Shown one piece after another: positions 1-55,628 of a stretch of DNA of 64,000 nucleotides. The first letter of the stretch is position 1. Each line of letters starts with the position of its first letter. The position numbers and the translations under genes were made by a program. The notes under the pieces are model-generated. The model worked only from the letters and a program-made list of their open reading frames with translations, was not told the origin of the DNA and searched no databases. Source of the stretch: the human T2T-CHM13v2.0 reference genome, Homo sapiens; NCBI GenBank assembly GCA_009914755.4, contig CP086569.2, positions 61,952,001-62,016,000 on the forward strand. Direction: 5' to 3'.

Positions 1-3000
1 AAGAAATTTCACGGAATGGAATCAAACAGAATGGAATCAAATCAATGGAATATAATCAAATGGAATGGATAGGAATTGAATGGAATAGATTGGATTGGAA
101 GGGATTGGAATGCAATGGACTGGGAAGGACTCGAATTTCATGAAACGGAATGGAATGGACTCGAATGGAATGGAATGTCATAGAATGGCATCAAATGGAA
201 TGGCATCAAATGGAATGGAATCGAATGCAATGGAATGTTATGGAATGGAATGGAATGAATTGGAATGAAATGTCCTCTAATGGAATGGATTCGAGTGGAA
301 TGGAATCGAATATAATGGAGTCGAATGAAATGGAATTGAAAGGAATGGGATCGAATAGAATGGAACATACTGGAATGTAATGTAATGAAGTCGAATGTAG
401 TTGACTGGAATGGAATGTACGTGAATGGAATGTAATCGAATGGAAAGTAATCCAATGGAATAGAATCTAATGCAATAAAATCGACTCGAATGGAATAGAA
501 TGGAATGGAATGGAATGCAGTGCCATGGAACGGAATGGAATGGAATGCAATGGAGTGGAGTGGAATGGAATGGAATGGAATGGGATGGAATGGTATGGAA
601 TGGATAGTAATGGACTGGAGTGAAATGGACTGGAAAGGAATGGACTCTAATTTAAAGGGCTCGAAAGGAATGGAGTCAAATGGAATGATCTGGAATGGAA
701 TGAACTCGAATGTAATGCAATCCAATAGAATGGAAACAAATGGAATGGAATTGAATGGAATGGAATTGAATGGAATGGGAACGAATGAAGTGAAATTGTA
801 AGGAATAAAAGAGTATAGAATGGAATGCAAGGGAAAGGAAAGGAATGGATTGGAATGGAATGGAATTCATTGGAATGGAAGGGAATGTAGTGTAATGGAC
901 AGGCCTGGAATAAACTGGAATTCTACGGTCTCGAATGGAATAAAAATGTATGGAATGGAATGCAGTGAAACGAATCGAATGTCATAGAATGTAACGGAAT
1001 GCAAAAAAATGGACTCCAAAATCATTGACTGGAAAGGCTGGGTGTCGGAAGGAATTGACTCCAATGGAATGGAATCGAATGGAATGGAAGTGAATAGAAT
1101 CGAACTAAATCGAATGGAATGGAATTGATAGGAACGGAATGGAAAGGAATGGAATGATTTGGCATGGAATGGAATCGAATGGCATCGAATGGAATGGAAT
1201 GGAATGCAATGGAATGGAATGTATTAGAATGTAATGAACTTTAATGGGATGTACTCGAATGGATTCGACTGGAATGGAATGTTCTGGAAGTGAATGGACT
1301 CCAATGGAATGGATTCGAAAGGAATGGAATCGAACGGAATGGAATCTAATGGAATGGAATTAAATGGAAAGGAATCAAATGGAATAGCACGGAATTGAAT
1401 TGAATGGAATCGAATGCAATGGAATCTAATGAAACGGAAAGGAAAGGAATGGAATGGAATGGAATGGGCTGGAATGGAATGGAATCGAAACGAATGGAAT
1501 GGAATCGAACTGCAGAGACTGCAATGGAATGTACTGGAATGCAAGGGAGTGTAATGGTAGGTTCTCGAAAAAAATGGAATCGAATGGAATGGAATTGAAT
1601 GGAACGGAATAGAGTCGAATGGAATTGAATGGAATGGAATGGACTAGAGTGAAATGGAATCGAGTCACAAGGAATGGACAGGAATAGAATGGTCTCGAAT
1701 TGAATGGAATCGTATGGAATGGCATCAAACGGAATGGAATGGACAGCCACGGAATGGAATGCACTCGAATGCAATGGAGTCGAAACTAATGGACTGGAAT
1801 AGAATGGACTCGACTGGTACGGACTCCAATGGAATGGAATGGAATGGAAGGGAATCGAACGGAATGGACTCGAAGTGAAAAGACTGCAACGGAAAGGTTT
1901 CGAATGGAATGGAAATTAATGGAATGGAATGGAATCGAATGAAATGGAGTCAAAAGGAATGGAATCGAATGGCAAGGAATCGAATGTAATGGAATCACAA
2001 GGAATGGATGTGAACGGAACGGAATGGAATGGAATCAAAAGGAATGGAATAGAATGGAATGGAATCGAATGGAAAGGACTTGAATGGAAATCACTTGAAT
2101 AGAAGGAAATTTAATAAAATAGGATCAAATATAATGGAATGGAATGGAAAGGAATCGAAACGAAAGGAATGGAGACAGATGGAAAGGAATGGAACAGAGA
2201 GCAATGGTATAGAATGGAATGGAATCATCTGGAATGGAATTGAATGGAATGGAATAATATGATATGGAATGGAATGGAATGGAATGCCCTTGAATTAAAT
2301 GGACTGGAATGGAATGGACTCGAACAGAGTGGAATGGAAAGTGTTGAAATAGAATGGAATGGACTCCTTTGGAATGGTCTAGTATGCAATGCAATCGACT
2401 GGCAGGGAATCAAAAGGAATGTAATGGAATGGATTGGACTGGAATGCAATGGAGTCGAATAGATAGGAAACGGAATGCAAAGGAATGGAATGGAATAGTA
2501 TGGAATGGAATGGAAAGGAATGGAGTGGAATAGACTAGAGTGGAATGGAATGGACTCGAAAGCAATGGACTGGAATGGAACTTTCTTGAATGGACTGGAA
2601 TCAAACGGAATGGAATGCAATGCAATCAAATGGCATGGAATAAAATAGAATGAAAGAGAATCAAATGGAATTGAATCGAATGGAATCGAATGGATTGGAA
2701 AGGAATAGAATGGAATGGAATGGAACTGACTCAAATGGAATGGACTAGAATGGAATGGAGTCGAATGGAAGGCAAAGGAATAGAATCTATTGGAATGGAC
2801 TGTAATGGAATGGAATGGAAGGGATTGGAATGGACTCGAATGGAATGGACTGCAATAGAAAGGATTCGAATGGAATGAAAAAGAATTGAATGGAATAGAA
2901 CAGAATGGAATCAAATCGAATGTAACGGAATGGAATTGAAAGGAATGGAATGAAATGGAATGGAAAGGATTCGAATGGAATGCAATCGAAGGGAATGCAA

Positions 3001-3503
3001 TCGAATGGAATGGAATCGAACGGAATGGAATAAAATGGAAGAAAACTGGCAAGAAATGGAATCGAAATGAATGGAGTGTTATGGAACGGACTCAAAAGGA
3101 ATTGAATGTAATAGAATGGAGTGGAGTGGACTCGAATGTAATGGACTGGAATGGAACGGAATCACATGGAATGGGAACGAATGGAATGGAATGGAAAGGA
3201 ATGGAATCGAATGGAAAGGAATCGAATGGAAGGGAATGAAATTGAATCAACAGGAATGGAAGGGAATAGAATAGACTGTAATGGAATGGACTCGAACAGA
3301 ATGGAAACGAATGCTCATATTGAATGGACTCGTATAGAATGGAAACGAAAGGAATGTCATCGAATGGAATTGAATCGATTGGAATGAAATCGCATAGAAT
3401 GGAGTGGAATCAAATGGAATTGAATCGAAAGTAAAGGAAGTGAATGGACTGAAATGAAATGGAATGGAATTGAATGGAAAGTAATGCAATGGAATGGAAT
3501 GGA
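1..3503. repeat. DYZ1-like HOR copy 1 (3503 bp); variant set shared with copy 7
   Basis: Phase defined by the aaatttcac landmark. It carries HFF, FHLIP and DSIFFENL variants (ORFs 1346..1774 and 1426..1764), which are shared with copy 7 and not with copies 2-6. Confidence 0.8.
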
Positions 3504-6500
3504 ACGAAATTTCACTTAATGGAATCAAACAGAATGGAATCAAATCAATGGAATATAATCAAATGGAATGGATAGGAATTGAATGGAATAGATTGGATTG
3601 GAAGGGATTGGAATGCAATGGAATGGGAAGGACTCGAATTTCATGAAACGGAATGGAATGAATTGGAATGGAATGGACTCGAATGGAATGGAATCAAATG
3701 GAATGGCATCAAATGGAATGGAATCGAATGCAATGGAATGTTATGGAATGGAATGGGATGCATTGGAATGAAATGTCCTCTAATGGAATGGATTCGAGTG
3801 GAATGGAATCGAATATAATGGAGTCGAATGAAAAGGAATTGAAAGGAATGGGATCGAATAGAATGGAATATACTGGAATGTAATGTAATGAAGTCGAATG
3901 TAATTGACTGGAATGGAATGTACGTGAATGGAATGAAATCGAATGGAAAGTAATCCAATGGAATAGAATCTAATGCAATAAAATCGACTCGAATGGAATA
4001 GAATGGAATGGAATGGAATGCAGTGCAATGGAACGGAATGGAATGGAATGCAATGGAGTGGAATGGAATGGAATGGAATGGGATGGAATGGTATGGAATG
4101 GATAGTAATGGACTGGAATGAAATGGACTGGAAAGGAATGGACTGAAATTGAAAGGGCTCGAAAGGAATGGAGTCAAATGGAATGATCTGGAATGGAATG
4201 AACTCGAATGTAATGCAATCCAATAGAATGGAAACAAATGGAATGGAATTGAATGGAATGGAATTGAATGGATTGGGAACGAATGGAGTGAAATTGTATG
4301 GAATAGAAGAGAATAGAATGGAATGCAGGGGAAAGGAAAGGAATGGATTGGAATGGAATGGAATTCATTGGAATGGAAGGGAATGTAGTGTAATGGACAG
4401 GCCTGGAATAAACTGGAATGCTACGGTCTCGAATGGAATAAAAATGTATGGAATGCAATGCAGTGAAACGAATCGAATGTCATAGAATGTAATGGAATGC
4501 AAAAAAATGGACTCCAAAATCATTGACTGGAAAGGCTGGGTGTCGAAAGGAATTGACTCCAATGGAATGGAATCGAATGGAATGGAAGTGAATAGAATCG
4601 AACTAAATCGAATGGAATGGAATTGATAGGAACGGAATGGAAAGGAATGGAATGATTTGGCATGGAATGGAATCGAATGGCATCGAATGGAATGGAATGG
4701 AATGTAATGGAATGGAATGTATTAGAATGTAATGAACTTTAATGGGATGTACTCGAATGGATTCGACTGGAATGGAATGTTCTGGAAGTGAATGGACTCC
4801 AATGGAATGGATTCGAAAGGAATGGAATCGAACGGAATGGAATCTAATGGAATGGAATTAAATGGAAAGGAATCAAAAGGAATAGCACGGAATTGAATTG
4901 AATGGAATCGAATGCAATGGAATCTAATGAAACGGAAAGGAAAGGAATGGAATGGAATGGAATGGGCTGGAATGGAATGGAATCGAAACGAATGGAATGG
5001 AATCGAACTGCAGAGACTGCAATGGAATGTACTGGAATGCAAGGGAGTGTAATGGAAGGTTCTCGAAAAGAATGGAATCGAATGGAATGGAATTGAATGG
5101 AACGGAATAGAGTCGAATGGAATTGAATGGAATGGAATGGACTAGAGTGAAATGGAATCGAGTCACAAGGAATAGACAGGAATAGAATGGTCTCGAATTG
5201 AATGGAATCGTATGGAATGGCATCAAACGGAATGGAATGGACAGCCACGGAATGGAATGCACTCGAATGCAATGGAGTCGAAACTAATGGACTGGAATAG
5301 AATGGACTCGACTGGTACGGACTCCAATGGAATGGAATGGAATGGAAGGGAATCGAACGGAATGGACTCGAAGTGAAAAGACTGCAACGGAAAGGTTTCG
5401 AATGGAATGGAAATTAATGGAATGGAATGGAATCGAATGAAATGGAGTCAAAAGGAATGGAATCGAATGGCAAGGAATCGAATGTAATGGAATCACAAGG
5501 AATGGATGTGAACGGAACGGAATGGAATGGAATCAAAAGGAATGGAATAGAATGGAATGGAATCGAATGGAAAGGACTTGAATGGAAATCACTTGAATAG
5601 AAGGAAATTTAATAAAATAGGATCAAATATAATGGAATGGAATGGAAAGGAATCGAAACGAAAGGAATGGAGACAGATGGAAAGGAATGGAACAGAGAGC
5701 AATGGTATAGAATGGAATGGAATCATCTGGAATGGAATTGAATGGAATGGAATAATATGATATGGAATGGAATGGAATGGAATGCCCTTGAATTAAATGG
5801 ACTGGAATGGAATGGACTCGAACAGAGTGGAATGGAAAGTGTTGAAATAGAATGGAATGGACTCCTTTGGAATGGTCTAGTATGCAATGCAATCGACTGG
5901 CAGGGAATCAAAAGGAATGTAATGGAATGGATTGGACTGGAATGCAATGGAGTCGAATAGATAGGAAACGGAATGCAAAGGAATGGAATGGAATAGTATG
6001 GAATGGAATGGAAAGGAATGGAGTGGAATAGACTAGAGTGGAATGGAATGGACTCGAAAGCAATGGACTGGAATGGAACTTTCTTGAATGGACTGGAATC
6101 AAACGGAATGGAATGCAATGCAATCAAATGGCATGGAATAAAATAGAATGAAAGAGAATCAAATGGAATTGAATCGAATGGAATCGAATGGATTGGAAAG
6201 GAATAGAATGGAATGGAATGGAACTGACTCAAATGGAATGGACTAGAATGGAATGGAGTCGAATGGAAGGCAAAGGAATAGAATCTATTGGAATGGACTG
6301 TAATGGAATGGAATGGAAGGGATTGGAATGGACTCGAATGGAATGGACTGCAATAGAAAGGATTCGAATGGAATGAAAAAGAATTGAATGGAATAGAACA
6401 GAATGGAATCAAATCGAATGTAACGGAATGGAATTGAAAGGAATGGAATGAAATGGAATGGAAAGGATTCGAATGGAATGCAATCGAAGGGAATGCAATC

Positions 6501-7001
6501 GAATGGAATGGAATCGAACGGAATGGAATAAAATGGAAGAAAACTGGCAAGAAATGGAATCGAAATGAATGGAGTGTTATGGAACGGACTCAAAAGGAAT
6601 TGAATGTAATAGAATGGAGTGGAGTGGACTCGAATGTAATGGACTGGAATGGAACGGAATCACATGGAATGGGAACGAATGGAATGGAATGGAAAGGAAT
6701 GGAATCGAATGGAAAGGAATCGAATGGAAGGGAATGAAATTGAATCAACAGGAATGGAAGGGAATAGAATAGACTGTAATGGAATGGACTCGAACAGAAT
6801 GGAAACGAATGCTCATATTGAATGGACTCGTATAGAATGGAAACGAAAGGAATGTCATCGAATGGAATTGAATCGATTGGAATGAAATCGCATAGAATGG
6901 AGTGGAATCAAATGGAATTGAATCGAAAGTAAAGGAAGTGAATGGACTGAAATGAAATGGAATGGAATTGAATGGAAAGTAATGCAATGGAATGGAATGG
7001 A
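3504..7001. repeat. DYZ1-like HOR copy 2 (3498 bp)
   Basis: Landmark period 3498. Its ORF-track translations are identical to those of copies 3-5. Confidence 0.85.
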
Positions 7002-10000
7002 ACGAAATTTCACTTAATGGAATCAAACAGAATGGAATCAAATCAATGGAATATAATCAAATGGAATGGATAGGAATTGAATGGAATAGATTGGATTGGA
7101 AGGGATTGGAATGCAATGGAATGGGAAGGACTCGAATTTCATGAAACGGAATGGAATGAATTGGAATGGAATGGACTCGAATGGAATGGAATCAAATGGA
7201 ATGGCATCAAATGGAATGGAATCGAATGCAATGGAATGTTATGGAATGGAATGGGATGCATTGGAATGAAATGTCCTCTAATGGAATGGATTCGAGTGGA
7301 ATGGAATCGAATATAATGGAGTCGAATGAAAAGGAATTGAAAGGAATGGGATCGAATAGAATGGAATATACTGGAATGTAATGTAATGAAGTCGAATGTA
7401 ATTGACTGGAATGGAATGTACGTGAATGGAATGAAATCGAATGGAAAGTAATCCAATGGAATAGAATCTAATGCAATAAAATCGACTCGAATGGAATAGA
7501 ATGGAATGGAATGGAATGCAGTGCAATGGAACGGAATGGAATGGAATGCAATGGAGTGGAATGGAATGGAATGGAATGGGATGGAATGGTATGGAATGGA
7601 TAGTAATGGACTGGAATGAAATGGACTGGAAAGGAATGGACTGAAATTGAAAGGGCTCGAAAGGAATGGAGTCAAATGGAATGATCTGGAATGGAATGAA
7701 CTCGAATGTAATGCAATCCAATAGAATGGAAACAAATGGAATGGAATTGAATGGAATGGAATTGAATGGATTGGGAACGAATGGAGTGAAATTGTATGGA
7801 ATAGAAGAGAATAGAATGGAATGCAGGGGAAAGGAAAGGAATGGATTGGAATGGAATGGAATTCATTGGAATGGAAGGGAATGTAGTGTAATGGACAGGC
7901 CTGGAATAAACTGGAATGCTACGGTCTCGAATGGAATAAAAATGTATGGAATGCAATGCAGTGAAACGAATCGAATGTCATAGAATGTAATGGAATGCAA
8001 AAAAATGGACTCCAAAATCATTGACTGGAAAGGCTGGGTGTCGAAAGGAATTGACTCCAATGGAATGGAATCGAATGGAATGGAAGTGAATAGAATCGAA
8101 CTAAATCGAATGGAATGGAATTGATAGGAACGGAATGGAAAGGAATGGAATGATTTGGCATGGAATGGAATCGAATGGCATCGAATGGAATGGAATGGAA
8201 TGTAATGGAATGGAATGTATTAGAATGTAATGAACTTTAATGGGATGTACTCGAATGGATTCGACTGGAATGGAATGTTCTGGAAGTGAATGGACTCCAA
8301 TGGAATGGATTCGAAAGGAATGGAATCGAACGGAATGGAATCTAATGGAATGGAATTAAATGGAAAGGAATCAAAAGGAATAGCACGGAATTGAATTGAA
8401 TGGAATCGAATGCAATGGAATCTAATGAAACGGAAAGGAAAGGAATGGAATGGAATGGAATGGGCTGGAATGGAATGGAATCGAAACGAATGGAATGGAA
8501 TCGAACTGCAGAGACTGCAATGGAATGTACTGGAATGCAAGGGAGTGTAATGGAAGGTTCTCGAAAAGAATGGAATCGAATGGAATGGAATTGAATGGAA
8601 CGGAATAGAGTCGAATGGAATTGAATGGAATGGAATGGACTAGAGTGAAATGGAATCGAGTCACAAGGAATAGACAGGAATAGAATGGTCTCGAATTGAA
8701 TGGAATCGTATGGAATGGCATCAAACGGAATGGAATGGACAGCCACGGAATGGAATGCACTCGAATGCAATGGAGTCGAAACTAATGGACTGGAATAGAA
8801 TGGACTCGACTGGTACGGACTCCAATGGAATGGAATGGAATGGAAGGGAATCGAACGGAATGGACTCGAAGTGAAAAGACTGCAACGGAAAGGTTTCGAA
8901 TGGAATGGAAATTAATGGAATGGAATGGAATCGAATGAAATGGAGTCAAAAGGAATGGAATCGAATGGCAAGGAATCGAATGTAATGGAATCACAAGGAA
9001 TGGATGTGAACGGAACGGAATGGAATGGAATCAAAAGGAATGGAATAGAATGGAATGGAATCGAATGGAAAGGACTTGAATGGAAATCACTTGAATAGAA
9101 GGAAATTTAATAAAATAGGATCAAATATAATGGAATGGAATGGAAAGGAATCGAAACGAAAGGAATGGAGACAGATGGAAAGGAATGGAACAGAGAGCAA
9201 TGGTATAGAATGGAATGGAATCATCTGGAATGGAATTGAATGGAATGGAATAATATGATATGGAATGGAATGGAATGGAATGCCCTTGAATTAAATGGAC
9301 TGGAATGGAATGGACTCGAACAGAGTGGAATGGAAAGTGTTGAAATAGAATGGAATGGACTCCTTTGGAATGGTCTAGTATGCAATGCAATCGACTGGCA
9401 GGGAATCAAAAGGAATGTAATGGAATGGATTGGACTGGAATGCAATGGAGTCGAATAGATAGGAAACGGAATGCAAAGGAATGGAATGGAATAGTATGGA
9501 ATGGAATGGAAAGGAATGGAGTGGAATAGACTAGAGTGGAATGGAATGGACTCGAAAGCAATGGACTGGAATGGAACTTTCTTGAATGGACTGGAATCAA
9601 ACGGAATGGAATGCAATGCAATCAAATGGCATGGAATAAAATAGAATGAAAGAGAATCAAATGGAATTGAATCGAATGGAATCGAATGGATTGGAAAGGA
9701 ATAGAATGGAATGGAATGGAACTGACTCAAATGGAATGGACTAGAATGGAATGGAGTCGAATGGAAGGCAAAGGAATAGAATCTATTGGAATGGACTGTA
9801 ATGGAATGGAATGGAAGGGATTGGAATGGACTCGAATGGAATGGACTGCAATAGAAAGGATTCGAATGGAATGAAAAAGAATTGAATGGAATAGAACAGA
9901 ATGGAATCAAATCGAATGTAACGGAATGGAATTGAAAGGAATGGAATGAAATGGAATGGAAAGGATTCGAATGGAATGCAATCGAAGGGAATGCAATCGA

Positions 10001-10499
10001 ATGGAATGGAATCGAACGGAATGGAATAAAATGGAAGAAAACTGGCAAGAAATGGAATCGAAATGAATGGAGTGTTATGGAACGGACTCAAAAGGAATTG
10101 AATGTAATAGAATGGAGTGGAGTGGACTCGAATGTAATGGACTGGAATGGAACGGAATCACATGGAATGGGAACGAATGGAATGGAATGGAAAGGAATGG
10201 AATCGAATGGAAAGGAATCGAATGGAAGGGAATGAAATTGAATCAACAGGAATGGAAGGGAATAGAATAGACTGTAATGGAATGGACTCGAACAGAATGG
10301 AAACGAATGCTCATATTGAATGGACTCGTATAGAATGGAAACGAAAGGAATGTCATCGAATGGAATTGAATCGATTGGAATGAAATCGCATAGAATGGAG
10401 TGGAATCAAATGGAATTGAATCGAAAGTAAAGGAAGTGAATGGACTGAAATGAAATGGAATGGAATTGAATGGAAAGTAATGCAATGGAATGGAATGGA
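7002..10499. repeat. DYZ1-like HOR copy 3 (3498 bp)
   Basis: Landmark period 3498. Translations are identical to copy 2. Confidence 0.85.
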
Positions 10500-13400
10500 A
10501 CGAAATTTCACTTAATGGAATCAAACAGAATGGAATCAAATCAATGGAATATAATCAAATGGAATGGATAGGAATTGAATGGAATAGATTGGATTGGAAG
10601 GGATTGGAATGCAATGGAATGGGAAGGACTCGAATTTCATGAAACGGAATGGAATGAATTGGAATGGAATGGACTCGAATGGAATGGAATCAAATGGAAT
10701 GGCATCAAATGGAATGGAATCGAATGCAATGGAATGTTATGGAATGGAATGGGATGCATTGGAATGAAATGTCCTCTAATGGAATGGATTCGAGTGGAAT
10801 GGAATCGAATATAATGGAGTCGAATGAAAAGGAATTGAAAGGAATGGGATCGAATAGAATGGAATATACTGGAATGTAATGTAATGAAGTCGAATGTAAT
10901 TGACTGGAATGGAATGTACGTGAATGGAATGAAATCGAATGGAAAGTAATCCAATGGAATAGAATCTAATGCAATAAAATCGACTCGAATGGAATAGAAT
11001 GGAATGGAATGGAATGCAGTGCAATGGAACGGAATGGAATGGAATGCAATGGAGTGGAATGGAATGGAATGGAATGGGATGGAATGGTATGGAATGGATA
11101 GTAATGGACTGGAATGAAATGGACTGGAAAGGAATGGACTGAAATTGAAAGGGCTCGAAAGGAATGGAGTCAAATGGAATGATCTGGAATGGAATGAACT
11201 CGAATGTAATGCAATCCAATAGAATGGAAACAAATGGAATGGAATTGAATGGAATGGAATTGAATGGATTGGGAACGAATGGAGTGAAATTGTATGGAAT
11301 AGAAGAGAATAGAATGGAATGCAGGGGAAAGGAAAGGAATGGATTGGAATGGAATGGAATTCATTGGAATGGAAGGGAATGTAGTGTAATGGACAGGCCT
11401 GGAATAAACTGGAATGCTACGGTCTCGAATGGAATAAAAATGTATGGAATGCAATGCAGTGAAACGAATCGAATGTCATAGAATGTAATGGAATGCAAAA
11501 AAATGGACTCCAAAATCATTGACTGGAAAGGCTGGGTGTCGAAAGGAATTGACTCCAATGGAATGGAATCGAATGGAATGGAAGTGAATAGAATCGAACT
11601 AAATCGAATGGAATGGAATTGATAGGAACGGAATGGAAAGGAATGGAATGATTTGGCATGGAATGGAATCGAATGGCATCGAATGGAATGGAATGGAATG
11701 TAATGGAATGGAATGTATTAGAATGTAATGAACTTTAATGGGATGTACTCGAATGGATTCGACTGGAATGGAATGTTCTGGAAGTGAATGGACTCCAATG
11801 GAATGGATTCGAAAGGAATGGAATCGAACGGAATGGAATCTAATGGAATGGAATTAAATGGAAAGGAATCAAAAGGAATAGCACGGAATTGAATTGAATG
11901 GAATCGAATGCAATGGAATCTAATGAAACGGAAAGGAAAGGAATGGAATGGAATGGAATGGGCTGGAATGGAATGGAATCGAAACGAATGGAATGGAATC
12001 GAACTGCAGAGACTGCAATGGAATGTACTGGAATGCAAGGGAGTGTAATGGAAGGTTCTCGAAAAGAATGGAATCGAATGGAATGGAATTGAATGGAACG
12101 GAATAGAGTCGAATGGAATTGAATGGAATGGAATGGACTAGAGTGAAATGGAATCGAGTCACAAGGAATAGACAGGAATAGAATGGTCTCGAATTGAATG
12201 GAATCGTATGGAATGGCATCAAACGGAATGGAATGGACAGCCACGGAATGGAATGCACTCGAATGCAATGGAGTCGAAACTAATGGACTGGAATAGAATG
12301 GACTCGACTGGTACGGACTCCAATGGAATGGAATGGAATGGAAGGGAATCGAACGGAATGGACTCGAAGTGAAAAGACTGCAACGGAAAGGTTTCGAATG
12401 GAATGGAAATTAATGGAATGGAATGGAATCGAATGAAATGGAGTCAAAAGGAATGGAATCGAATGGCAAGGAATCGAATGTAATGGAATCACAAGGAATG
12501 GATGTGAACGGAACGGAATGGAATGGAATCGAATGGAAAGGACTTGAATGGAAATCACTTGAATAGAAGGAAATTTAATAAAATAGGATCAAATATAATG
12601 GAATGGAATGGAAAGGAATCGAAACGAAAGGAATGGAGACAGATGGAAAGGAATGGAACAGAGAGCAATGGTATAGAATGGAATGGAATCATCTGGAATG
12701 GAATTGAATGGAATGGAATAATATGATATGGAATGGAATGGAATGGAATGCCCTTGAATTAAATGGACTGGAATGGAATGGACTCGAACAGAGTGGAATG
12801 GAAAGTGTTGAAATAGAATGGAATGGACTCCTTTGGAATGGTCTAGTATGCAATGCAATCGACTGGCAGGGAATCAAAAGGAATGTAATGGAATGGATTG
12901 GACTGGAATGCAATGGAGTCGAATAGATAGGAAACGGAATGCAAAGGAATGGAATGGAATAGTATGGAATGGAATGGAAAGGAATGGAGTGGAATAGACT
13001 AGAGTGGAATGGAATGGACTCGAAAGCAATGGACTGGAATGGAACTTTCTTGAATGGACTGGAATCAAACGGAATGGAATGCAATGCAATCAAATGGCAT
13101 GGAATAAAATAGAATGAAAGAGAATCAAATGGAATTGAATCGAATGGAATCGAATGGATTGGAAAGGAATAGAATGGAATGGAATGGAACTGACTCAAAT
13201 GGAATGGACTAGAATGGAATGGAGTCGAATGGAAGGCAAAGGAATAGAATCTATTGGAATGGACTGTAATGGAATGGAATGGAAGGGATTGGAATGGACT
13301 CGAATGGAATGGACTGCAATAGAAAGGATTCGAATGGAATGAAAAAGAATTGAATGGAATAGAACAGAATGGAATCAAATCGAATGTAACGGAATGGAAT

Positions 13401-13967
13401 TGAAAGGAATGGAATGAAATGGAATGGAAAGGATTCGAATGGAATGCAATCGAAGGGAATGCAATCGAATGGAATGGAATCGAACGGAATGGAATAAAAT
13501 GGAAGAAAACTGGCAAGAAATGGAATCGAAATGAATGGAGTGTTATGGAACGGACTCAAAAGGAATTGAATGTAATAGAATGGAGTGGAGTGGACTCGAA
13601 TGTAATGGACTGGAATGGAACGGAATCACATGGAATGGGAACGAATGGAATGGAATGGAAAGGAATGGAATCGAATGGAAAGGAATCGAATGGAAGGGAA
13701 TGAAATTGAATCAACAGGAATGGAAGGGAATAGAATAGACTGTAATGGAATGGACTCGAACAGAATGGAAACGAATGCTCATATTGAATGGACTCGTATA
13801 GAATGGAAACGAAAGGAATGTCATCGAATGGAATTGAATCGATTGGAATGAAATCGCATAGAATGGAGTGGAATCAAATGGAATTGAATCGAAAGTAAAG
13901 GAAGTGAATGGACTGAAATGAAATGGAATGGAATTGAATGGAAAGTAATGCAATGGAATGGAATGGA
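10500..13967. repeat. DYZ1-like HOR copy 4 (3468 bp; carries a 30-bp, 6-pentamer deletion)
   Basis: Landmark period 3468. Near 12527 the sequence caaaaggaatggaatagaatggaatggaat, present in the other copies, is missing. Confidence 0.85.
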
Positions 13968-16900
13968 ACGAAATTTCACTTAATGGAATCAAACAGAATG
14001 GAATCAAATCAATGGAATATAATCAAATGGAATGGATAGGAATTGAATGGAATAGATTGGATTGGAAGGGATTGGAATGCAATGGAATGGGAAGGACTCG
14101 AATTTCATGAAACGGAATGGAATGAATTGGAATGGAATGGACTCGAATGGAATGGAATCAAATGGAATGGCATCAAATGGAATGGAATCGAATGCAATGG
14201 AATGTTATGGAATGGAATGGGATGCATTGGAATGAAATGTCCTCTAATGGAATGGATTCGAGTGGAATGGAATCGAATATAATGGAGTCGAATGAAAAGG
14301 AATTGAAAGGAATGGGATCGAATAGAATGGAATATACTGGAATGTAATGTAATGAAGTCGAATGTAATTGACTGGAATGGAATGTACGTGAATGGAATGA
14401 AATCGAATGGAAAGTAATCCAATGGAATAGAATCTAATGCAATAAAATCGACTCGAATGGAATAGAATGGAATGGAATGGAATGCAGTGCAATGGAACGG
14501 AATGGAATGGAATGCAATGGAGTGGAATGGAATGGAATGGAATGGGATGGAATGGTATGGAATGGATAGTAATGGACTGGAATGAAATGGACTGGAAAGG
14601 AATGGACTGAAATTGAAAGGGCTCGAAAGGAATGGAGTCAAATGGAATGATCTGGAATGGAATGAACTCGAATGTAATGCAATCCAATAGAATGGAAACA
14701 AATGGAATGGAATTGAATGGAATGGAATTGAATGGATTGGGAACGAATGGAGTGAAATTGTATGGAATAGAAGAGAATAGAATGGAATGCAGGGGAAAGG
14801 AAAGGAATGGATTGGAATGGAATGGAATTCATTGGAATGGAAGGGAATGTAGTGTAATGGACAGGCCTGGAATAAACTGGAATGCTACGGTCTCGAATGG
14901 AATAAAAATGTATGGAATGCAATGCAGTGAAACGAATCGAATGTCATAGAATGTAATGGAATGCAAAAAAATGGACTCCAAAATCATTGACTGGAAAGGC
15001 TGGGTGTCGAAAGGAATTGACTCCAATGGAATGGAATCGAATGGAATGGAAGTGAATAGAATCGAACTAAATCGAATGGAATGGAATTGATAGGAACGGA
15101 ATGGAAAGGAATGGAATGATTTGGCATGGAATGGAATCGAATGGCATCGAATGGAATGGAATGGAATGTAATGGAATGGAATGTATTAGAATGTAATGAA
15201 CTTTAATGGGATGTACTCGAATGGATTCGACTGGAATGGAATGTTCTGGAAGTGAATGGACTCCAATGGAATGGATTCGAAAGGAATGGAATCGAACGGA
15301 ATGGAATCTAATGGAATGGAATTAAATGGAAAGGAATCAAAAGGAATAGCACGGAATTGAATTGAATGGAATCGAATGCAATGGAATCTAATGAAACGGA
15401 AAGGAAAGGAATGGAATGGAATGGAATGGGCTGGAATGGAATGGAATCGAAACGAATGGAATGGAATCGAACTGCAGAGACTGCAATGGAATGTACTGGA
15501 ATGCAAGGGAGTGTAATGGAAGGTTCTCGAAAAGAATGGAATCGAATGGAATGGAATTGAATGGAACGGAATAGAGTCGAATGGAATTGAATGGAATGGA
15601 ATGGACTAGAGTGAAATGGAATCGAGTCACAAGGAATAGACAGGAATAGAATGGTCTCGAATTGAATGGAATCGTATGGAATGGCATCAAACGGAATGGA
15701 ATGGACAGCCACGGAATGGAATGCACTCGAATGCAATGGAGTCGAAACTAATGGACTGGAATAGAATGGACTCGACTGGTACGGACTCCAATGGAATGGA
15801 ATGGAATGGAAGGGAATCGAACGGAATGGACTCGAAGTGAAAAGACTGCAACGGAAAGGTTTCGAATGGAATGGAAATTAATGGAATGGAATGGAATCGA
15901 ATGAAATGGAGTCAAAAGGAATGGAATCGAATGGCAAGGAATCGAATGTAATGGAATCACAAGGAATGGATGTGAACGGAACGGAATGGAATGGAATCAA
16001 AAGGAATGGAATAGAATGGAATGGAATCGAATGGAAAGGACTTGAATGGAAATCACTTGAATAGAAGGAAATTTAATAAAATAGGATCAAATATAATGGA
16101 ATGGAATGGAAAGGAATCGAAACGAAAGGAATGGAGACAGATGGAAAGGAATGGAACAGAGAGCAATGGTATAGAATGGAATGGAATCATCTGGAATGGA
16201 ATTGAATGGAATGGAATAATATGATATGGAATGGAATGGAATGGAATGCCCTTGAATTAAATGGACTGGAATGGAATGGACTCGAACAGAGTGGAATGGA
16301 AAGTGTTGAAATAGAATGGAATGGACTCCTTTGGAATGGTCTAGTATGCAATGCAATCGACTGGCAGGGAATCAAAAGGAATGTAATGGAATGGATTGGA
16401 CTGGAATGCAATGGAGTCGAATAGATAGGAAACGGAATGCAAAGGAATGGAATGGAATAGTATGGAATGGAATGGAAAGGAATGGAGTGGAATAGACTAG
16501 AGTGGAATGGAATGGACTCGAAAGCAATGGACTGGAATGGAACTTTCTTGAATGGACTGGAATCAAACGGAATGGAATGCAATGCAATCAAATGGCATGG
16601 AATAAAATAGAATGAAAGAGAATCAAATGGAATTGAATCGAATGGAATCGAATGGATTGGAAAGGAATAGAATGGAATGGAATGGAACTGACTCAAATGG
16701 AATGGACTAGAATGGAATGGAGTCGAATGGAAGGCAAAGGAATAGAATCTATTGGAATGGACTGTAATGGAATGGAATGGAAGGGATTGGAATGGACTCG
16801 AATGGAATGGACTGCAATAGAAAGGATTCGAATGGAATGAAAAAGAATTGAATGGAATAGAACAGAATGGAATCAAATCGAATGTAACGGAATGGAATTG

Positions 16901-17465
16901 AAAGGAATGGAATGAAATGGAATGGAAAGGATTCGAATGGAATGCAATCGAAGGGAATGCAATCGAATGGAATGGAATCGAACGGAATGGAATAAAATGG
17001 AAGAAAACTGGCAAGAAATGGAATCGAAATGAATGGAGTGTTATGGAACGGACTCAAAAGGAATTGAATGTAATAGAATGGAGTGGAGTGGACTCGAATG
17101 TAATGGACTGGAATGGAACGGAATCACATGGAATGGGAACGAATGGAATGGAATGGAAAGGAATGGAATCGAATGGAAAGGAATCGAATGGAAGGGAATG
17201 AAATTGAATCAACAGGAATGGAAGGGAATAGAATAGACTGTAATGGAATGGACTCGAACAGAATGGAAACGAATGCTCATATTGAATGGACTCGTATAGA
17301 ATGGAAACGAAAGGAATGTCATCGAATGGAATTGAATCGATTGGAATGAAATCGCATAGAATGGAGTGGAATCAAATGGAATTGAATCGAAAGTAAAGGA
17401 AGTGAATGGACTGAAATGAAATGGAATGGAATTGAATGGAAAGTAATGCAATGGAATGGAATGGA
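13968..17465. repeat. DYZ1-like HOR copy 5 (3498 bp)
   Basis: Landmark period 3498. Translations are identical to copies 2-3. Confidence 0.85.
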
Positions 17466-20400
17466 ACGAAATTTCACTTAATGGAATCAAACAGAATGGA
17501 ATCAAATCAATGGAATATAATCAAATGGAATGGATAGGAATTGAATGGAATAGATTGGATTGGAAGGGATTGGAATGCAATGGAATGGGAAGGACTCGAA
17601 TTTCATGAAACGGAATGGAATGAATTGGAATGGAATGGACTCGAATGGAATGGAATCAAATGGAATGGCATCAAATGGAATGGAATCGAATGCAATGGAA
17701 TGTTATGGAATGGAATGGGATGCATTGGAATGAAATGTCCTCTAATGGAATGGATTCGAGTGGAATGGAATCGAATATAATGGAGTCGAATGAAAAGGAA
17801 TTGAAAGGAATGGGATCGAATAGAATGGAATATACTGGAATGTAATGTAATGAAGTCGAATGTAATTGACTGGAATGGAATGTACGTGAATGGAATGAAA
17901 TCGAATGGAAAGTAATCCAATGGAATAGAATCTAATGCAATAAAATCGACTCGAATGGAATAGAATGGAATGGAATGGAATGCAGTGCAATGGAACGGAA
18001 TGGAATGGAATGCAATGGAGTGGAATGGAATGGAATGGAATGGGATGGAATGGTATGGAATGGATAGTAATGGACTGGAATGAAATGGACTGGAAAGGAA
18101 TGGACTGAAATTGAAAGGGCTCGAAAGGAATGGAGTCAAATGGAATGATCTGGAATGGAATGAACTCGAATGTAATGCAATCCAATAGAATGGAAACAAA
18201 TGGAATGGAATTGAATGGAATGGAATTGAATGGATTGGGAACGAATGGAGTGAAATTGTATGGAATAGAAGAGAATAGAATGGAATGCAGGGGAAAGGAA
18301 AGGAATGGATTGGAATGGAATGGAATTCATTGGAATGGAAGGGAATGTAGTGTAATGGACAGGCCTGGAATAAACTGGAATGCTACGGTCTCGAATGGAA
18401 TAAAAATGTATGGAATGCAATGCAGTGAAACGAATCGAATGTCATAGAATGTAATGGAATGCAAAAAAATGGACTCCAAAATCATTGACTGGAAAGGCTG
18501 GGTGTCGAAAGGAATTGACTCCAATGGAATGGAATCGAATGGAATGGAAGTGAATAGAATCGAACTAAATCGAATGGAATGGAATTGATAGGAACGGAAT
18601 GGAAAGGAATGGAATGATTTGGCATGGAATGGAATCGAATGGCATCGAATGGAATGGAATGGAATGTAATGGAATGGAATGTATTAGAATGTAATGAACT
18701 TTAATGGGATGTACTCGAATGGATTCGACTGGAATGGAATGTTCTGGAAGTGAATGGACTCCAATGGAATGGATTCGAAAGGAATGGAATCGAACGGAAT
18801 GGAATCTAATGGAATGGAATTAAATGGAAAGGAATCAAAAGGAATAGCACGGAATTGAATTGAATGGAATCGAATGCAATGGAATCTAATGAAACGGAAA
18901 GGAAAGGAATGGAATGGAATGGAATGGGCTGGAATGGAATGGAATCGAAACGAATGGAATGGAATCGAACTGCAGAGACTGCAATGGAATGTACTGGAAT
19001 GCAAGGGAGTGTAATGGAAGGTTCTCGAAAAGAATGGAATCGAATGGAATGGAATTGAATGGAACGGAATAGAGTCGAATGGAATTGAATGGAATGGAAT
19101 GGACTAGAGTGAAATGGAATCGAGTCACAAGGAATAGACAGGAATAGAATGGTCTCGAATTGAATGGAATCGTATGGAATGGCATCAAACGGAATGGAAT
19201 GGACAGCCACGGAATGGAATGCACTCGAATGCAATGGAGTCGAAACTAATGGACTGGAATAGAATGGACTCGACTGGTACGGACTCCAATGGAATGGAAT
19301 GGAATGGAAGGGAATCGAACGGAATGGACTCGAAGTGAAAAGACTGCAACGGAAAGGTTTCGAATGGAATGGAAATTAATGGAATGGAATGGAATCGAAT
19401 GAAATGGAGTCAAAAGGAATGGAATCGAATGGCAAGGAATCGAATGTAATGGAATCACAAGGAATGGATGTGAACGGAACGGAATGGAATGGAATCAAAA
19501 GGAATGGAATAGAATGGAATGGAATCGAATGGAAAGGACTTGAATGGAAATCACTTGAATAGAAGGAAATTTAATAAAATAGGATCAAATATAATGGAAT
19601 GGAATGGAAAGGAATCGAAACGAAAGGAATGGAGACAGATGGAAAGGAATGGAACAGAGAGCAATGGTATAGAATGGAATGGAATCATCTGGAATGGAAT
19701 TGAATGGAATGGAATAATATGATATGGAATGGAATGGAATGGAATGCCCTTGAATTAAATGGACTGGAATGGAATGGACTCGAACAGAGTGGAATGGAAA
19801 GTGTTGAAATAGAATGGAATGGACTCCTTTGGAATGGTCTAGTATGCAATGCAATCGACTGGCAGGGAATCAAAAGGAATGTAATGGAATGCATTGGACT
19901 GGAATGCAATGGACTCGAATAGATAGGAAACGGAATGCAAAGGAATGGAATGGAATAGTATGGAATGGAATGGAAAGGAATGGAGTGGAATAGACTAGAG
20001 TGGAATGTAATGGACTGGAAAGCAATGGACTGGAATGGAACTTTCTTGAATGGACTGGAATCAAACGGAATGGAATGCAATGCAATCAAATGGCATGGAA
20101 TAAAATAGAATGAAAGAGAATCAAATGGAATTGAATCGAATGGAATCGAATGGATTGGAAAGGAATAGAATGGAATGGAATGGAACTGACTCAAATGGAA
20201 TGGACTAGAATGGAATGGAGTCGAATGGAAGGCAAAGGAATAGAATCTATTGGAATGGACTGTAATGGAATGGAATGGAAGGGATTGGAATGGACTCGAA
20301 TGGAATGGACTGCAATAGAAAGGATTCGAATGGAATGAAAAAGAATTGAATGGAATAGAACAGAATGGAATCAAATCGAATGTAACGGAATGGAATTGAA

Positions 20401-20963
20401 AGGAATGGAATGAAATGGAATGGAAAGGATTCAAATGGAATGCAATCGAAGGGAATGCAATCGAATGGAATGGAATCGAACGGAATGGAATAAAATGGAA
20501 GAAAACTGGCAAGAAATGGAATCGAAATGAATGGAGTGTTATGGAACGGACTCAAAAGGAATTGAATGTAATAGAATGGAGTGGAGTGGACTCGAATGTA
20601 ATGGACTGGAATGGAACGGAATCACATGGAATGGGAACGAATGGAATGGAATGGAAAGGAATGGAATCGAATGGAAAGGAATCGAATGGAAGGGAATGAA
20701 ATTGAATCAACAGGAATGGAAGGGAATAGAATAGACTGTAATGGAATGGACTCGAACAGAATGGAAACGAATGCTCATATTGAATGGACTCGTATAGAAT
20801 GGAAACGAAAGGAATGTCATCGAATGGAATTGAATCGATTGGAATGAAATCGCATAGAATGGAGTGGAATCAAATGGAATTGAATCGAAAGTAAAGGAAG
20901 CGAATGGACTGAAATGAAATGGAATGGAATTGAATGGAAAGTAATGCAATGGAATGGAATGGA
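17466..20963. repeat. DYZ1-like HOR copy 6 (3498 bp)
   Basis: Landmark period 3498. A few substitutions appear in its second half (ORFs 19685..20512 and 19870..20085 differ slightly from copies 2-5). Confidence 0.85.
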
Positions 20964-23900
20964 ACGAAATTTCACTTAATGGAATCAAACAGAATGGAAT
21001 CAAATCAATGGAATATAATCAAATGGAATGGATAGGAATTGAATGGAATAGATTGGATTGGAAGGGATTGGAATGCAATGGAATGGGAAGGACTCGAATT
21101 TCATGAAACGGAATGGAATGAATTGGAATGGAATGGACTCGAATGGAATGGAATCAAATGGAATGGCATCAAATGGAATGGAATCGAATGCAATGGAATG
21201 TTATGGAATGGAATGGGATGCATTGGAATGAAATGTCCTCTAATGGAATGGATTCGAGTGGAAAGGAATCGAATATAATGGAGTCGAATGAAAAGGAATT
21301 GAAAGGAATGGGATCGAATAGAATGGAATATACTGGAATGTAATGTAATGAAGTCGAATGTAATTGACTGGAATGGAATGTACGTGAATGGAATGTAATC
21401 GAATGGAAAGTAATCCAAAGGAAGAGAATCTAATGCAATAAAATCGACTCGAATGGAATAGAATGGAATGGAATGGAATGCAGTGCAATGGAACGGAATG
21501 GAATGGAATGCAATGGAGTGGAATGGAATGGAATGGAATGGAATGGGACGGAATGGTATGGAATGGATAGTAATGGACTGGAGTGAAATGGACAGGAAAG
21601 GAATGGACTGAAATTGAAAGGGCTCGAAAGGAATGGAGTCAAATGGAATGATCTGGAATGGAATGAACTCGAATGTAATGCAATCCAATAGAATGGAAAC
21701 AAATGGAATGGAATTGAATGGAATGGAATTGAATGGAATGGGAACGAATGGAGTGAAATTGTATGGAATAGAAGAGAATAGAATGGAATGCAAGGGAAAG
21801 GAAAGGAATGGATTGGAATGGAATGGAATTCATTGGAATGGAAGGGAATGTAGTGTAATGGACAGGCCTGGAATAAACTGGAATGCTACGGTCTCGAATG
21901 GAATAAAAATGTATGGAATGGAATGCAGTGAAACGAATCGAATGTCATAGAATGTAATGGAATGCAAAAAAATGGACTCCAAAATCATTGACTGGAAAGG
22001 CTGGGTGTCGAAAGGAATTGACTCCAATGGAATGGAATCGAATGGAATGGAAGTGAATAGAATCGAACTAAATCGAATGGAATGGAATTGATAGGAACGG
22101 AATGGAAAGGAATGGAATGATTTGGCATGGAATGGAATCGAATGGCATCGAATGGAATGGAATGGAATGCAATGGAATGGAATGTATTAGAATGTAATGA
22201 ACTTTAATGGGATGTACTCGAATGGATTCGACTGGAATGGAATGTTCTGGAAGTGAATGGACTCCAATGGAATGGATTCGAAAGGAATGGAATCGAACGG
22301 AATGGAATCTAATGGAATGGAATTAAATGGAAAGGAATCAAATGGAATAGCACGGAATTGAATTGAATGGAATCGAATGCAATGGAATCTAATGAAACGG
22401 AAAGGAAAGGAATGGAATGGAATGGAATGGGCTGGAATGGAATGGAATCGAAACGAATGGAATGGAATCGAACTGCAGAGACTGCAATGGAATGTACTGG
22501 AATGCAAGGGAGTGTAATGGAAGGTTCTCGAAAAAAATGGAATCGAATGGAATGGAATTGAATGGAACGGAATAGAGTCGAATGGAATTGAATGGAATGG
22601 AATGGACTAGAGTGAAATGGAATCGAGTCACAAGGAATGGACAGGAATAGAATGGTCTCGAATTGAATGGAATCGTATGGAATGGCATCAAACGGAATGG
22701 AATGGACAGCCACGGAATGGAATGCACTCGAATGCAATGGAGTCGAAACTAATGGACTGGAATAGAATGGACTCGACTGGTACGGACTCCAATGGAATGG
22801 AATGGAATGGAAGGGAATCGAACGGAATGGACTCGAAGTGAAAAGACTGCAACGGAAAGGTTTCGAATGGAATGGAAATTAATGGAATGGAATGGAATCG
22901 AATGAAATGGAGTCAAAAGGAATGGAATCGAATGGCAAGGAATCGAATGTAATGGAATCGCAAGGAATGGATGTGAACGGAACGGAATGGAATGGAATCA
23001 AAAGGAATGGAATAGAATGGAATGGAATCGAATGGAAAGGACTCGAATGGAAATCACTTGAATAGAAGGAAATTTAATAAAATAGGATCAAATATAATGG
23101 AATGGAATGGAAAGGAATCGAAACGAAAGGAATGGAGACAGATGGAAAGGAATGGAACAGAGAGCAATGGTATAGAATGGAATGGAATCATCTGGAATGG
23201 AATTGAATGGAATGGAATAATATGATATGGAATGGAATGGAATGGAATGCCCTTGAATTAAATGGACTGGAATGGAATGGACTCGAACAGAGTGGAATGG
23301 AAAGTGTTGAAATAGAATGGAATGGACTCCTTTGGAATGGTCTAGTATGCAATGCAATCGACTGGCAGGGAATCAAAAGGAATGTAATCGAATGGATTGG
23401 ACTGGAATGCAACGGACTCGAATAGATAGGAAACGGAATGCAAAGGAATGGAATGGAATAGTATGGAATGGAATGGAAAGGAATGGAGTGGAATAGACTA
23501 GAGTGGAATGGAATGGACTCGAAAGCAATGGACTGGCATGGAACTTACTTGAATGGACTGGAATCAAACGGAATGGAATGCAATGCAATCAAATGGCATG
23601 GAATAAAATAGAATGAAAGAGAATCAAATGGAATTGAATCGAATGGAATCGAATGGATTGGAAAGGAATAGAATGGAATGGAATGGAACTGACTCAAATG
23701 GAATGGACTAGAATGGAATGGAGTCGAATGGAAGGCAAAGGAATAGAATCTATTGGAATGGACTGTAATGGAATGGAATGGAAGGGATTGGAATGGACTC
23801 GAATGGAATGGACTGCAATAGAAAGGATTCGAATGGAATGAAAAAGAATTGAATGGAATAGAACAGAATGGAATCAAATCGAATGTAACGGAATGGAATT

Positions 23901-50827: not shown

Positions 50828-51122
<295 letters not shown>

Positions 51123-53217: not shown

Positions 53218-55628
<2,411 letters not shown>

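What the first reader, a model, noticed from the sequence alone, without database searches (positions are those of the whole stretch)
3504..20963. Five consecutive ~3498-bp HOR copies that are virtually identical, flanked by two copies (1 and 7) that share a different variant set
Copies 2-5 give identical six-frame translations over their whole length, and copy 6 differs at only a handful of sites. Copies 1 and 7 lie immediately on either side, 20,963 bp apart. They share diagnostic substitutions that are absent from copies 2-6: HFF versus HSF, FHLIP versus FLLIP, SCPFLV versus SCLFLV, DSIFF versus DSILF, and an open 74-aa frame at 1654 and 22617 that is closed by TAG in copies 2-6. This pattern suggests a very recent local expansion of a single unit into a 5-copy block by unequal exchange or replication slippage. 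Alternatively it could be an over-polished or collapsed assembly region.
Basis: seen in the sequence. Interest (0 to 1): 0.5.

Follow-up and report, generated by a model that had tools for sequence, protein, structure and literature searches.

The report
Young identical-copy block in DYZ1 satellite
In a human Y-chromosome-type DYZ1 satellite array, one 3.5-kb repeat unit carrying its own rare mutations has very recently been multiplied into about five letter-perfect tandem copies; this is real, but it is the ordinary outcome of the unequal exchange already known to reshape these arrays.

Summary
The core observation holds. Units 2, 3 and 5 (3498 bp) are identical base for base. Unit 6 differs at 6 sites. 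The background difference between neighbouring units is about 2.5%.

Three corrections apply:
- Unit 4 is 3468 bp.
It runs 1677-19891 (18,215 bp, 5.2 periods) and includes the last 1827 bp of unit 1.
- Copies 1 and 7 are not a related pair; they differ at 47 sites. At all 10 sites where they agree against units 2-6, they carry the family-wide majority state, also seen in 22-33 independent DYZ1 copies (12 for the indel). Units 2-6 carry the rare states there. Unit 7 is the block's nearest relative (25 substitutions). The head of unit 1 is at background divergence.

The window is a DYZ1 (HSat3) array that meets DYZ2 (HSat1B) at about 50,115, as in Yq12.

The best explanation is a recent in-register tandem amplification of one variant unit by unequal sister-chromatid exchange, followed by a slippage deletion. 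At the published Yq12 mutation rate, zero substitutions implies under about 430 generations. An assembly artefact cannot be excluded without reads. This is a known phenomenon of low interest.

The parts
1..50115 (+). DYZ1-type (HSat3) satellite array. It holds 14 full units of 3468-3533 bp plus a truncated 15th, shown on the GGAAT-rich strand.
   Evidence: TRF finds a pentamer-based consensus. GC is 0.38-0.40 with strong GC skew. The period is 3498. There is one HaeIII site per unit. A primer pair I recalled as DYZ1 primers hits once per unit, 154 bp apart.
1..1676 (+). Head of unit 1, which is not part of the block. It has 39 substitutions and a 5-bp indel against unit 2 (2.3%, the background level). 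The last difference, at 1676, marks the left edge of the tract.
1677..19891 (+). The perfectly periodic tract of 18,215 bp, equal to 5.2 periods of 3498 bp. It can be rebuilt exactly from unit 2 alone, apart from one 30-bp deletion.
3504..10499 (+). Units 2 and 3, identical 3498-bp copies.
10500..13967 (+). Unit 4, 3468 bp, identical to unit 2 except for the 30-bp deletion.
12516..12530 (+). Deletion junction in unit 4. This is the single remaining copy of the 15-bp direct repeat GAATGGAATGGAATC, which flanks the deleted 30 bp in the other units. The deletion can be placed at 16 equivalent positions.
13968..17465 (+). Unit 5, identical to units 2 and 3.
17466..20963 (+). Unit 6. Its first 2426 bp are identical to the block. 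Its tail (19892-20963) has 6 substitutions; at two of them (19914 and 20901) unit 6 keeps the family-majority base where the block has a derived one.
20964..24466 (+). Unit 7 (3503 bp), the block's nearest relative with 25 substitutions (0.7%). It shares the derived TT at unit positions 13-14 with units 2-6. It keeps the ancestral state at the block-specific sites 433-1671.
50116..64000 (.). DYZ2-type (HSat1B) array, included as context only. Its units are about 2.41 kb and consist of an AT-rich part, a minus-strand Alu fragment (for example 50,827-51,115) and a more GC-rich part.

Best explanation
The window is the edge of a DYZ1 (HSat3A6) array next to a DYZ2 (HSat1B) array, the arrangement that makes up human Yq12.

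Within this array one unit lineage acquired a set of private point mutations. These are 433A, 770T, 825G, 953C, 1202T, 1375A, 1671A, 1992A, 2076T, 2421G, 2449G and 3436T in unit coordinates.

That lineage was then copied in register, head to tail, into about five tandem copies. The likely mechanism is a few rounds of unequal sister-chromatid exchange, meaning misalignment by one or two whole 3.5-kb units followed by crossover. Because the breakpoints of such exchanges fall at arbitrary phases, the homogeneous tract (1677-19891) is 5.2 periods long and is out of phase with any chosen unit boundary.

The hierarchy of similarity is units 2-5 (identical), then the unit 6 tail, then unit 7, then all the rest. 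This suggests successive rounds, with the youngest copies in the middle.

Afterwards, or during one of these events, one copy lost 30 bp by slippage or microhomology between two 15-bp direct repeats.

What is shown: the identity, the boundaries, the deletion anatomy, the polarity of the variants, and the satellite identity. What is inferred: the exchange mechanism, the number of steps and the age.

No function is implied.
For: - Exact identity: units 2, 3 and 5 are identical strings, and the tract 1677-19891 can be rebuilt from unit 2 alone.
- Contrast with background: neighbouring units 7-14 differ at 2.45% of alignment columns, the longest other difference-free stretch is under 400 bp, and ln P is about -416.
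- Variant polarity: in 33 independent DYZ1-bearing contigs from other samples, the block-specific alleles at 433, 770, 825, 953, 1202, 1375 and 1671 occur 0-1 times among 22-33 covered copies. The unit 1/unit 7 states are the majority. The block is therefore a derived variant that exists here in 5-6 copies.
- Hierarchy: unit 7 is nearest at 25 substitutions, against 58-130 for the others.
- Deletion anatomy: the deletion is flanked by 15-bp direct repeats.
- Satellite identity. The descriptions match Hallast et al. (10.1101/2022.12.01.518658) and Rhie et al. (10.1101/2022.12.01.518724).
- Published mechanism context: Yq12 rearrangement patterns are described as consistent with unequal exchange, and sister-chromatid exchanges were seen in about 15% of Strand-seq libraries. 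Units in array interiors are homogenised by expansion and contraction. About one de novo deletion or insertion of whole DYZ2 units occurs per Y transmission (PMC12240836).
- Age: at the pedigree Yq12 rate of 3.86e-7 per bp per generation, zero substitutions in 18.2 kb gives a 95% upper bound of about 426 generations.
Against: - No reads are available, so neither the copy number nor the absence of singleton variants can be verified independently.
- The source assembly is unknown.
- Sequence alone cannot separate duplication from complete homogenisation by repeated gene conversion, or iterated exchange from a single multi-copy step.
- The external contigs are mostly short-read collapsed consensus sequences. 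They establish which allele is the majority but say little about how rare the block alleles are across a whole Yq12.
- The published de novo whole-unit events were all in DYZ2, not DYZ1.
- The age bound assumes a star-like origin, and that the clock has not been reset by conversion among the copies.
Confidence: 0.7

Rival explanations
1. Assembly artefact. Under this reading the copies are not truly identical, or not truly five. One route is a tandem loop in the assembly graph traversed an estimated number of times. Another is polishing with multi-mapped reads that erased singleton differences.
For: An 18-kb perfectly periodic tract is the kind of structure assemblers resolve with least certainty. 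Rhie et al. report two unresolved possible issues in HSat arrays of T2T-Y.
Against: - Singletons survive in and beside the block: the 30-bp deletion in unit 4 only, and 6 private or ancestral bases in the unit 6 tail.
- The block carries rare private alleles rather than the family consensus that mis-mapped polishing would impose.
- The deletion splits the tract into perfectly periodic stretches of about 10.8 kb and 7.4 kb. My inference is that each can be spanned by ordinary HiFi reads and easily by ultra-long ONT reads.
- A collapse would lower the copy number, not create identical copies.
Confidence: 0.1
2. Homogenisation without amplification. Five pre-existing, ordinarily diverged units were overwritten by repeated gene conversion from one donor unit.
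For: Gene-conversion-like events are frequent in Yq12. In pedigrees, 29% of de novo single-nucleotide changes match non-orthologous sites, and a later study gives 17%. The window also contains a short patch that could be conversion-like: 27,299-29,799 against the sequence 7012 bp downstream.
Against: - It would take many overlapping conversion tracts to remove about 60-130 differences per unit across 18 kb without leaving one mosaic patch or one unit-length difference. The tract is seamless, and all full copies are exactly 3498 bp.
- One sharp edge on the left and a graded edge on the right fit nested duplications more simply.
Confidence: 0.1
3. A single-step multi-copy event gave all copies at once. 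Candidates are rolling-circle amplification of an excised 3.5-kb circle followed by reintegration, break-induced replication with repeated template switching, or large-scale replication slippage.
For: Zero substitutions among all copies, and a non-integer tract length of 5.2 periods, are both compatible with one event. On rough published whole-unit event rates, three or more separate exchanges at one locus within a few hundred generations would be uncommon. This is my inference.
Against: - The graded similarity (identical units, then the unit 6 tail at 6 differences per 1.07 kb, then unit 7 at 0.7%) shows that the lineage expanded more than once over time.
- Nothing in the sequence marks a circle junction or a template switch.
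- Unequal exchange is the mechanism with direct cytological and pedigree support in Yq12.
Confidence: 0.1

Closest known systems
Local homogenisation and expansion inside Yq12 DYZ1/DYZ2 arrays (Hallast et al. 2023; Rhie et al. 2023)
   Same: Same satellite, same unit size and same array context. In both, interior units are more alike than edge units, and the pattern is attributed to expansion and contraction by unequal exchange. In this window too, divergence is highest in the two units nearest the DYZ2 edge.
   Different: Those studies describe the pattern in 5-kb identity heat maps and per-unit divergence from a consensus. Here a single block is resolved base by base, with its boundaries, its private alleles and a post-expansion deletion.
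De novo whole-unit insertions and deletions in Yq12 seen in a four-generation pedigree (Porubsky et al. 2025, PMC12240836)
   Same: Gains or losses of entire satellite units (2,416-4,839 bp) occur about once per Y transmission. This is the elementary step proposed here.
   Different: The observed events were in DYZ2, not DYZ1, and involved one or two units. The block here needs several such steps or one larger one.
Layered recent expansions in centromeric alpha-satellite higher-order repeat arrays and in DYZ19
   Same: A young, highly identical core is flanked by progressively older, more diverged copies. [quoted passage not shown]
   Different: The repeat family and scale differ: here five copies and 18 kb, against tens to hundreds of kb. 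No kinetochore or other functional association applies here.

Membership tests
DYZ1 / HSat3A6 satellite of human Yq12 | Built from diverged copies of the pentamer GGAAT (CATTC) | tested here: met
   TRF consensus GAATGGAATGGAATC over 14-49,948. The sequence was also read directly.
DYZ1 / HSat3A6 satellite of human Yq12 | Nested long-period unit of about 3.5-3.6 kb | tested here: met
   The best offset is 3498 and units are 3468-3533 bp. That is about 60-70 bp shorter than the modal 3,569-bp HaeIII fragment of Hallast et al. and than an external 3,559-bp unit.
DYZ1 / HSat3A6 satellite of human Yq12 | One HaeIII (GGCC) site per unit | tested here: met
   GGCC occurs once per unit at regular spacing, with one extra site in unit 8.
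DYZ1 / HSat3A6 satellite of human Yq12 | Alternates with DYZ2/HSat1B arrays: a ~2.4-kb unit made of an AT-rich part, a truncated Alu and a more GC-rich part | tested here: met
   The junction lies at about 50,115. Beyond it are 2413-bp units with a minus-strand Alu fragment and GC of 0.20-0.27.
DYZ1 / HSat3A6 satellite of human Yq12 | GC content about 38% (against 24% for DYZ2) | tested here: met
   GC is 0.375-0.400 across 1-50,000.
DYZ1 / HSat3A6 satellite of human Yq12 | Sequence match to a published DYZ1 consensus, and location on the Y chromosome | not testable with these tools
   No human reference or DYZ1 consensus is available in the tools. Two pieces of indirect support exist. A primer pair I recalled as DYZ1 primers hits every unit 154 bp apart, but I found no paper to cite for it. 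The same sequence also turns up as short contaminant contigs in bacterial assemblies and metagenomes, including a human gut metagenome, as Rhie et al. describe for HSat3.
Tandem amplification by unequal (sister-chromatid) exchange | Copies are head to tail, in register, and separated by an exact whole period | tested here: met
   Exact periodicity of 3498 bp over 1677-19891.
Tandem amplification by unequal (sister-chromatid) exchange | Copies share derived variants that are absent from flanking units and from the family at large | tested here: met
   Seven substitutions are private to units 2-6, and five more are private to the tract. They are seen 0-1 times in 15-33 external copies and not in units 8-14.
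Tandem amplification by unequal (sister-chromatid) exchange | Direct evidence of the exchange: a reciprocal product, intermediate copy numbers in relatives, or a de novo event | not testable with these tools
   This needs other Y assemblies or pedigree data for this locus.
Assembly artefact (over-polished or mis-counted tandem copies) | Reads disagree with the assembled copy number or bases | not testable with these tools
   No read data are available, and the source assembly is unknown.
Assembly artefact (over-polished or mis-counted tandem copies) | Copies are driven toward the family consensus, with singleton variants erased | tested here: not met
   The block alleles are rare rather than consensus alleles. 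Singletons persist: the 30-bp deletion in unit 4 and 6 sites in unit 6.

The most novel reading that the evidence does not exclude
The block could be a lineage-private expansion less than about 1,000 generations old, or even one that arose in the donor or the cell line. It could have been produced in a single multi-copy step (rolling circle or break-induced replication) rather than by iterated unequal exchange. If so, it would be a datable snapshot of how fast, and by what route, DYZ1 units turn over.
Probability: 0.1. Interest if true: 0.35.

Novelty: already known. Interest (0 to 1): 0.15.

Why it matters
This is a clean, base-resolved example of satellite turnover. A variant unit is caught just after amplification, with a sharp left edge, a graded right edge and one later slippage deletion.

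It could serve as a haplogroup-specific structural marker. It could also be a small calibration point for the tempo of DYZ1 expansion relative to point mutation.

It does not change the current understanding. Unequal exchange and local homogenisation in Yq12 are already documented at the array, population and pedigree levels.

Tried and rejected
- The repeat finder on 1-25,000 was swamped by pentamer-level families and gave no long-period information. I used my own offset and run-length scripts instead.
- Two 77-base scans with ambiguity codes, designed to genotype sites 770 and 825 together in public collections, found nothing. A 33-base pattern then found 33 loci.
- The only long external contig (L011/L012, from a 55-kb record) has too many indels to measure neighbour-unit identity. 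L026 is a collapsed short-read unit. The frequency of perfect neighbouring copies in other men therefore could not be estimated.
- The first MAFFT --addfragments run timed out and was rerun with --6merpair.
- A full-text search for the DYZ1 primer sequence found no paper, so the primer identity rests on my memory.
- An Rfam scan of the DYZ2 side found nothing. The Alu fragment was identified by a consensus-string match and by reading the sequence.
- I rejected any coding interpretation of the open frames. Stop-free stretches of 60-300 codons occur in most frames of every unit because the pentamer repeat is stop-poor.
- I rejected the idea that units 1 and 7 are sister copies.
Full report
**What the window is**

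Positions 1 to about 50,115 are a satellite built from diverged GGAAT pentamers (TRF consensus GAATGGAATGGAATC). GC is 0.38-0.40 with a strong G-over-C skew, and the long period is close to 3.5 kb (best offset 3498).

Each long unit has one HaeIII site. Each also has one copy of a primer pair that I recall as the classic DYZ1 amplicon primers, 154 bp apart. I could not find a paper to cite for those primers.

At about 50,115 the array abuts an AT-rich repeat with 2413-bp units. These units contain a minus-strand Alu fragment and a more GC-rich segment.

This matches the published description of human Yq12. Hallast et al. describe DYZ1/HSat3A6 units of about 3.5 kb and 38% GC, alternating with DYZ2/HSat1B units of about 2.4 kb and 24% GC made of an AT-rich repeat plus a truncated Alu (10.1101/2022.12.01.518658). 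Rhie et al. give a similar account (10.1101/2022.12.01.518724). Chromosomal location and the source assembly cannot be verified with these tools.

**Checking the observation**

I used the motif AAATTTCA as an anchor. This places the units at 1, 3504, 7002, 10500, 13968, 17466, 20964, 24467, 27979, 31483, 34991, 38492, 41991, 45490 and 49023.

- Units 2, 3 and 5 are identical 3498-bp strings.
- Unit 4 is 3468 bp. It equals unit 2 minus 30 bp at unit positions 2017-2046.
- Unit 6 differs at six substitutions, all in its last 1072 bp: 19892, 19914, 20008, 20017, 20433 and 20901.
- Elsewhere, neighbouring units differ by 58-130 substitutions.
- Over units 7-14 the neighbour difference rate is 2.45% of alignment columns. 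The longest difference-free stretch between neighbours outside the block is under 400 bp. The log-probability of the observed identity at the background rate is about -416.

The core observation is therefore real and far beyond chance.

**The true extent of the tract**

The differences between units 1 and 2 (39 substitutions and a 5-bp indel) all lie in 1-1676. Unit 1 from 1677 to 3503 is identical to the corresponding part of units 2-5.

The perfectly periodic tract is therefore 1677-19891. That is 18,215 bp, or 5.2 periods. It can be rebuilt exactly from unit 2 alone, apart from the deletion.

**The flanking copies**

They do agree against units 2-6 at ten places: unit positions 433, the 5-bp indel at 555, 615, 770, 825, 953, 1202, 1375, 1567 and 1671.

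However, at nine of these ten places units 8-14 mostly or entirely carry the same state as units 1 and 7.

To establish polarity independently, I retrieved 33 DYZ1-bearing contigs from other samples. These are human contamination in bacterial assemblies and metagenomes. I aligned them to the units.

- At all ten places, the state in units 1 and 7 is the external majority (22-33 copies for the substitutions, 12 for the indel).
- The block alleles 433A, 770T, 825G, 953C, 1202T, 1375A and 1671A occur 0-1 times.

So units 1 and 7 share only ancestral states, and the block is the derived lineage.

FHLIP, SCPFLV and the open frame at 1654 recur in several or all of units 8-14.

Units 1 and 7 differ from each other at 47 sites, more than either differs from unit 2. 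The two flanks are unlike:

- The head of unit 1 is at background divergence from everything (2.1-2.3%).
- Unit 7 is the block's nearest relative, with 25 substitutions (0.7%). It shares the derived TT at positions 13-14 with units 2-6.

Similarity is thus nested: units 2-5, then the unit 6 tail, then unit 7, then the rest. The left edge is sharp and the right edge is graded.

**The deletion**

In the intact units, the missing 30 bp begin with GAATGGAATGGAATC, and the same 15 bases follow the deleted segment. The deletion can be placed at 16 equivalent positions. This is the signature of slippage or microhomology-mediated loss between short direct repeats. It is the only change inside the tract.

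**Mechanism**

The simplest account runs as follows.

1. One unit lineage accumulated private point mutations.
2. It was then copied in register by unequal sister-chromatid exchange, through misalignment by one or two whole units. This happened over a few rounds. Breakpoints at arbitrary phases explain the non-integer tract length.
3. The 30-bp loss followed, or accompanied one of these events.

The mechanism is inferred rather than shown here, but it is the documented mode of change for this region:

- Rhie et al. report rearrangement patterns consistent with unequal exchange, and sister-chromatid exchanges in Yq12 in about 15% of Strand-seq libraries.
- Hallast et al. report that array interiors are homogenised by expansion and contraction while edges diverge.
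- Porubsky et al. observed about one de novo gain or loss of whole DYZ2 units per Y transmission (PMC12240836).

The window itself shows the edge effect: units 13 and 14, next to DYZ2, are the most diverged.

**Age**

Porubsky et al. give a Yq12 point-mutation rate of 3.86e-7 per bp per generation. At that rate the tract expects 0.007 substitutions per generation.

For a star-like origin, observing zero substitutions gives a median of about 100 generations and a 95% upper bound of about 426 generations. At the autosomal euchromatic rate the bound is about 14,000 generations. If the copies arose stepwise, the first duplication could be roughly two to three times older than the star-like bound (my inference).

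These figures assume that conversion among the copies has not reset the clock.

**Rivals**

- **Assembly artefact.** This cannot be excluded without reads. It is disfavoured because singletons survive in and beside the block, and because the block carries rare alleles rather than consensus alleles. The deletion also divides the tract into periodic stretches of about 10.8 and 7.4 kb, which ordinary long reads can span (inference).
- **Pure gene conversion of pre-existing units.** This would need many overlapping tracts that leave no mosaic and no length difference, which is less economical. Conversion is nevertheless common in Yq12.
- **A single-step multi-copy event.** This is compatible with zero substitutions. 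The graded similarity of the unit 6 tail and unit 7 shows the lineage expanded more than once.

**Verdict**

The feature is real, with corrected boundaries and a corrected reading of the flanks. It is an ordinary instance of a well-described process in a well-studied satellite, so its novelty and interest are low. It could have some value as a datable structural marker if it were compared across Y lineages.

Noticed in passing
window 27,299-29,799 vs 34,311-36,811: A second, older patch of near-identity lies at a two-unit offset of 7012 bp, with 1 mismatch in 2,501 bp. It spans the tail of unit 8 and the head of unit 9, matched against the tail of unit 10 and the head of unit 11. Overall, units 9 and 11 differ by only 26 substitutions. 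This suggests a two-unit duplication or a conversion event in the same array.
   Followed up: partly
window 41,991-50,115: Divergence rises toward the DYZ2 edge. Units 13 and 14 differ from all other units by 84-130 substitutions, and unit 14 is 3533 bp. This fits the published pattern of homogenised array interiors and diverged edges.
   Followed up: partly
window ~50,100-50,120: The DYZ1-to-DYZ2 junction. The last DYZ1 unit is truncated after about 1,093 bp, just past ...GGAAAGGCTGTGTGTCGAAAGGAATA, and runs directly into AT-rich DYZ2 sequence with no intervening unique DNA.
   Followed up: partly
window 50,116-64,000: The first two DYZ2 units next to the junction (50,116-52,528 and 52,532-54,939) are 94.9% identical to each other. 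The next four units are only about 88% identical to the first. A 27-base Alu consensus string matches only the first two units at 3 or fewer mismatches.
   Followed up: partly
all DYZ1 units of the window; external unit L026:3013-6571: The units here are 3468-3533 bp. That is about 60-70 bp shorter than an external collapsed DYZ1 unit (3,559 bp) and than the published modal HaeIII fragment (3,569 bp). Relative to L026 they lack 15 bp near unit position 189 and 45 bp near position 726, along with other indels. All the indels are multiples of 5 bp, so this is an array-wide length variant.
   Followed up: partly
window 4273, 7771, 11269, 14737, 18235 (unit position 770): The block-specific A->T change falls inside the forward primer site of the DYZ1 154-bp amplicon (primer sequence recalled from memory). 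The five block copies therefore each carry one mismatch to that primer. All 35 external matches carry A.
   Followed up: no
window 26,163: Unit 8 has an extra HaeIII (GGCC) site. A restriction digest would split that unit into fragments of 790 and 2,717 bp.
   Followed up: no
L001-L005 (genome contigs) and L006-L033 (metagenome contigs): Contigs of the DYZ1 satellite type sit in records labelled as bacterial genomes, for example Actinomadura cremea JCM 3308, Streptosporangium violaceochromogenes JCM 3281 and Streptomyces sp. NPDC050549. They also occur in many metagenome assemblies. Many are about 3.6 kb, the size expected when a tandem unit collapses in a short-read assembly. This is the human-contamination problem that Rhie et al. 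describe.
   Followed up: partly
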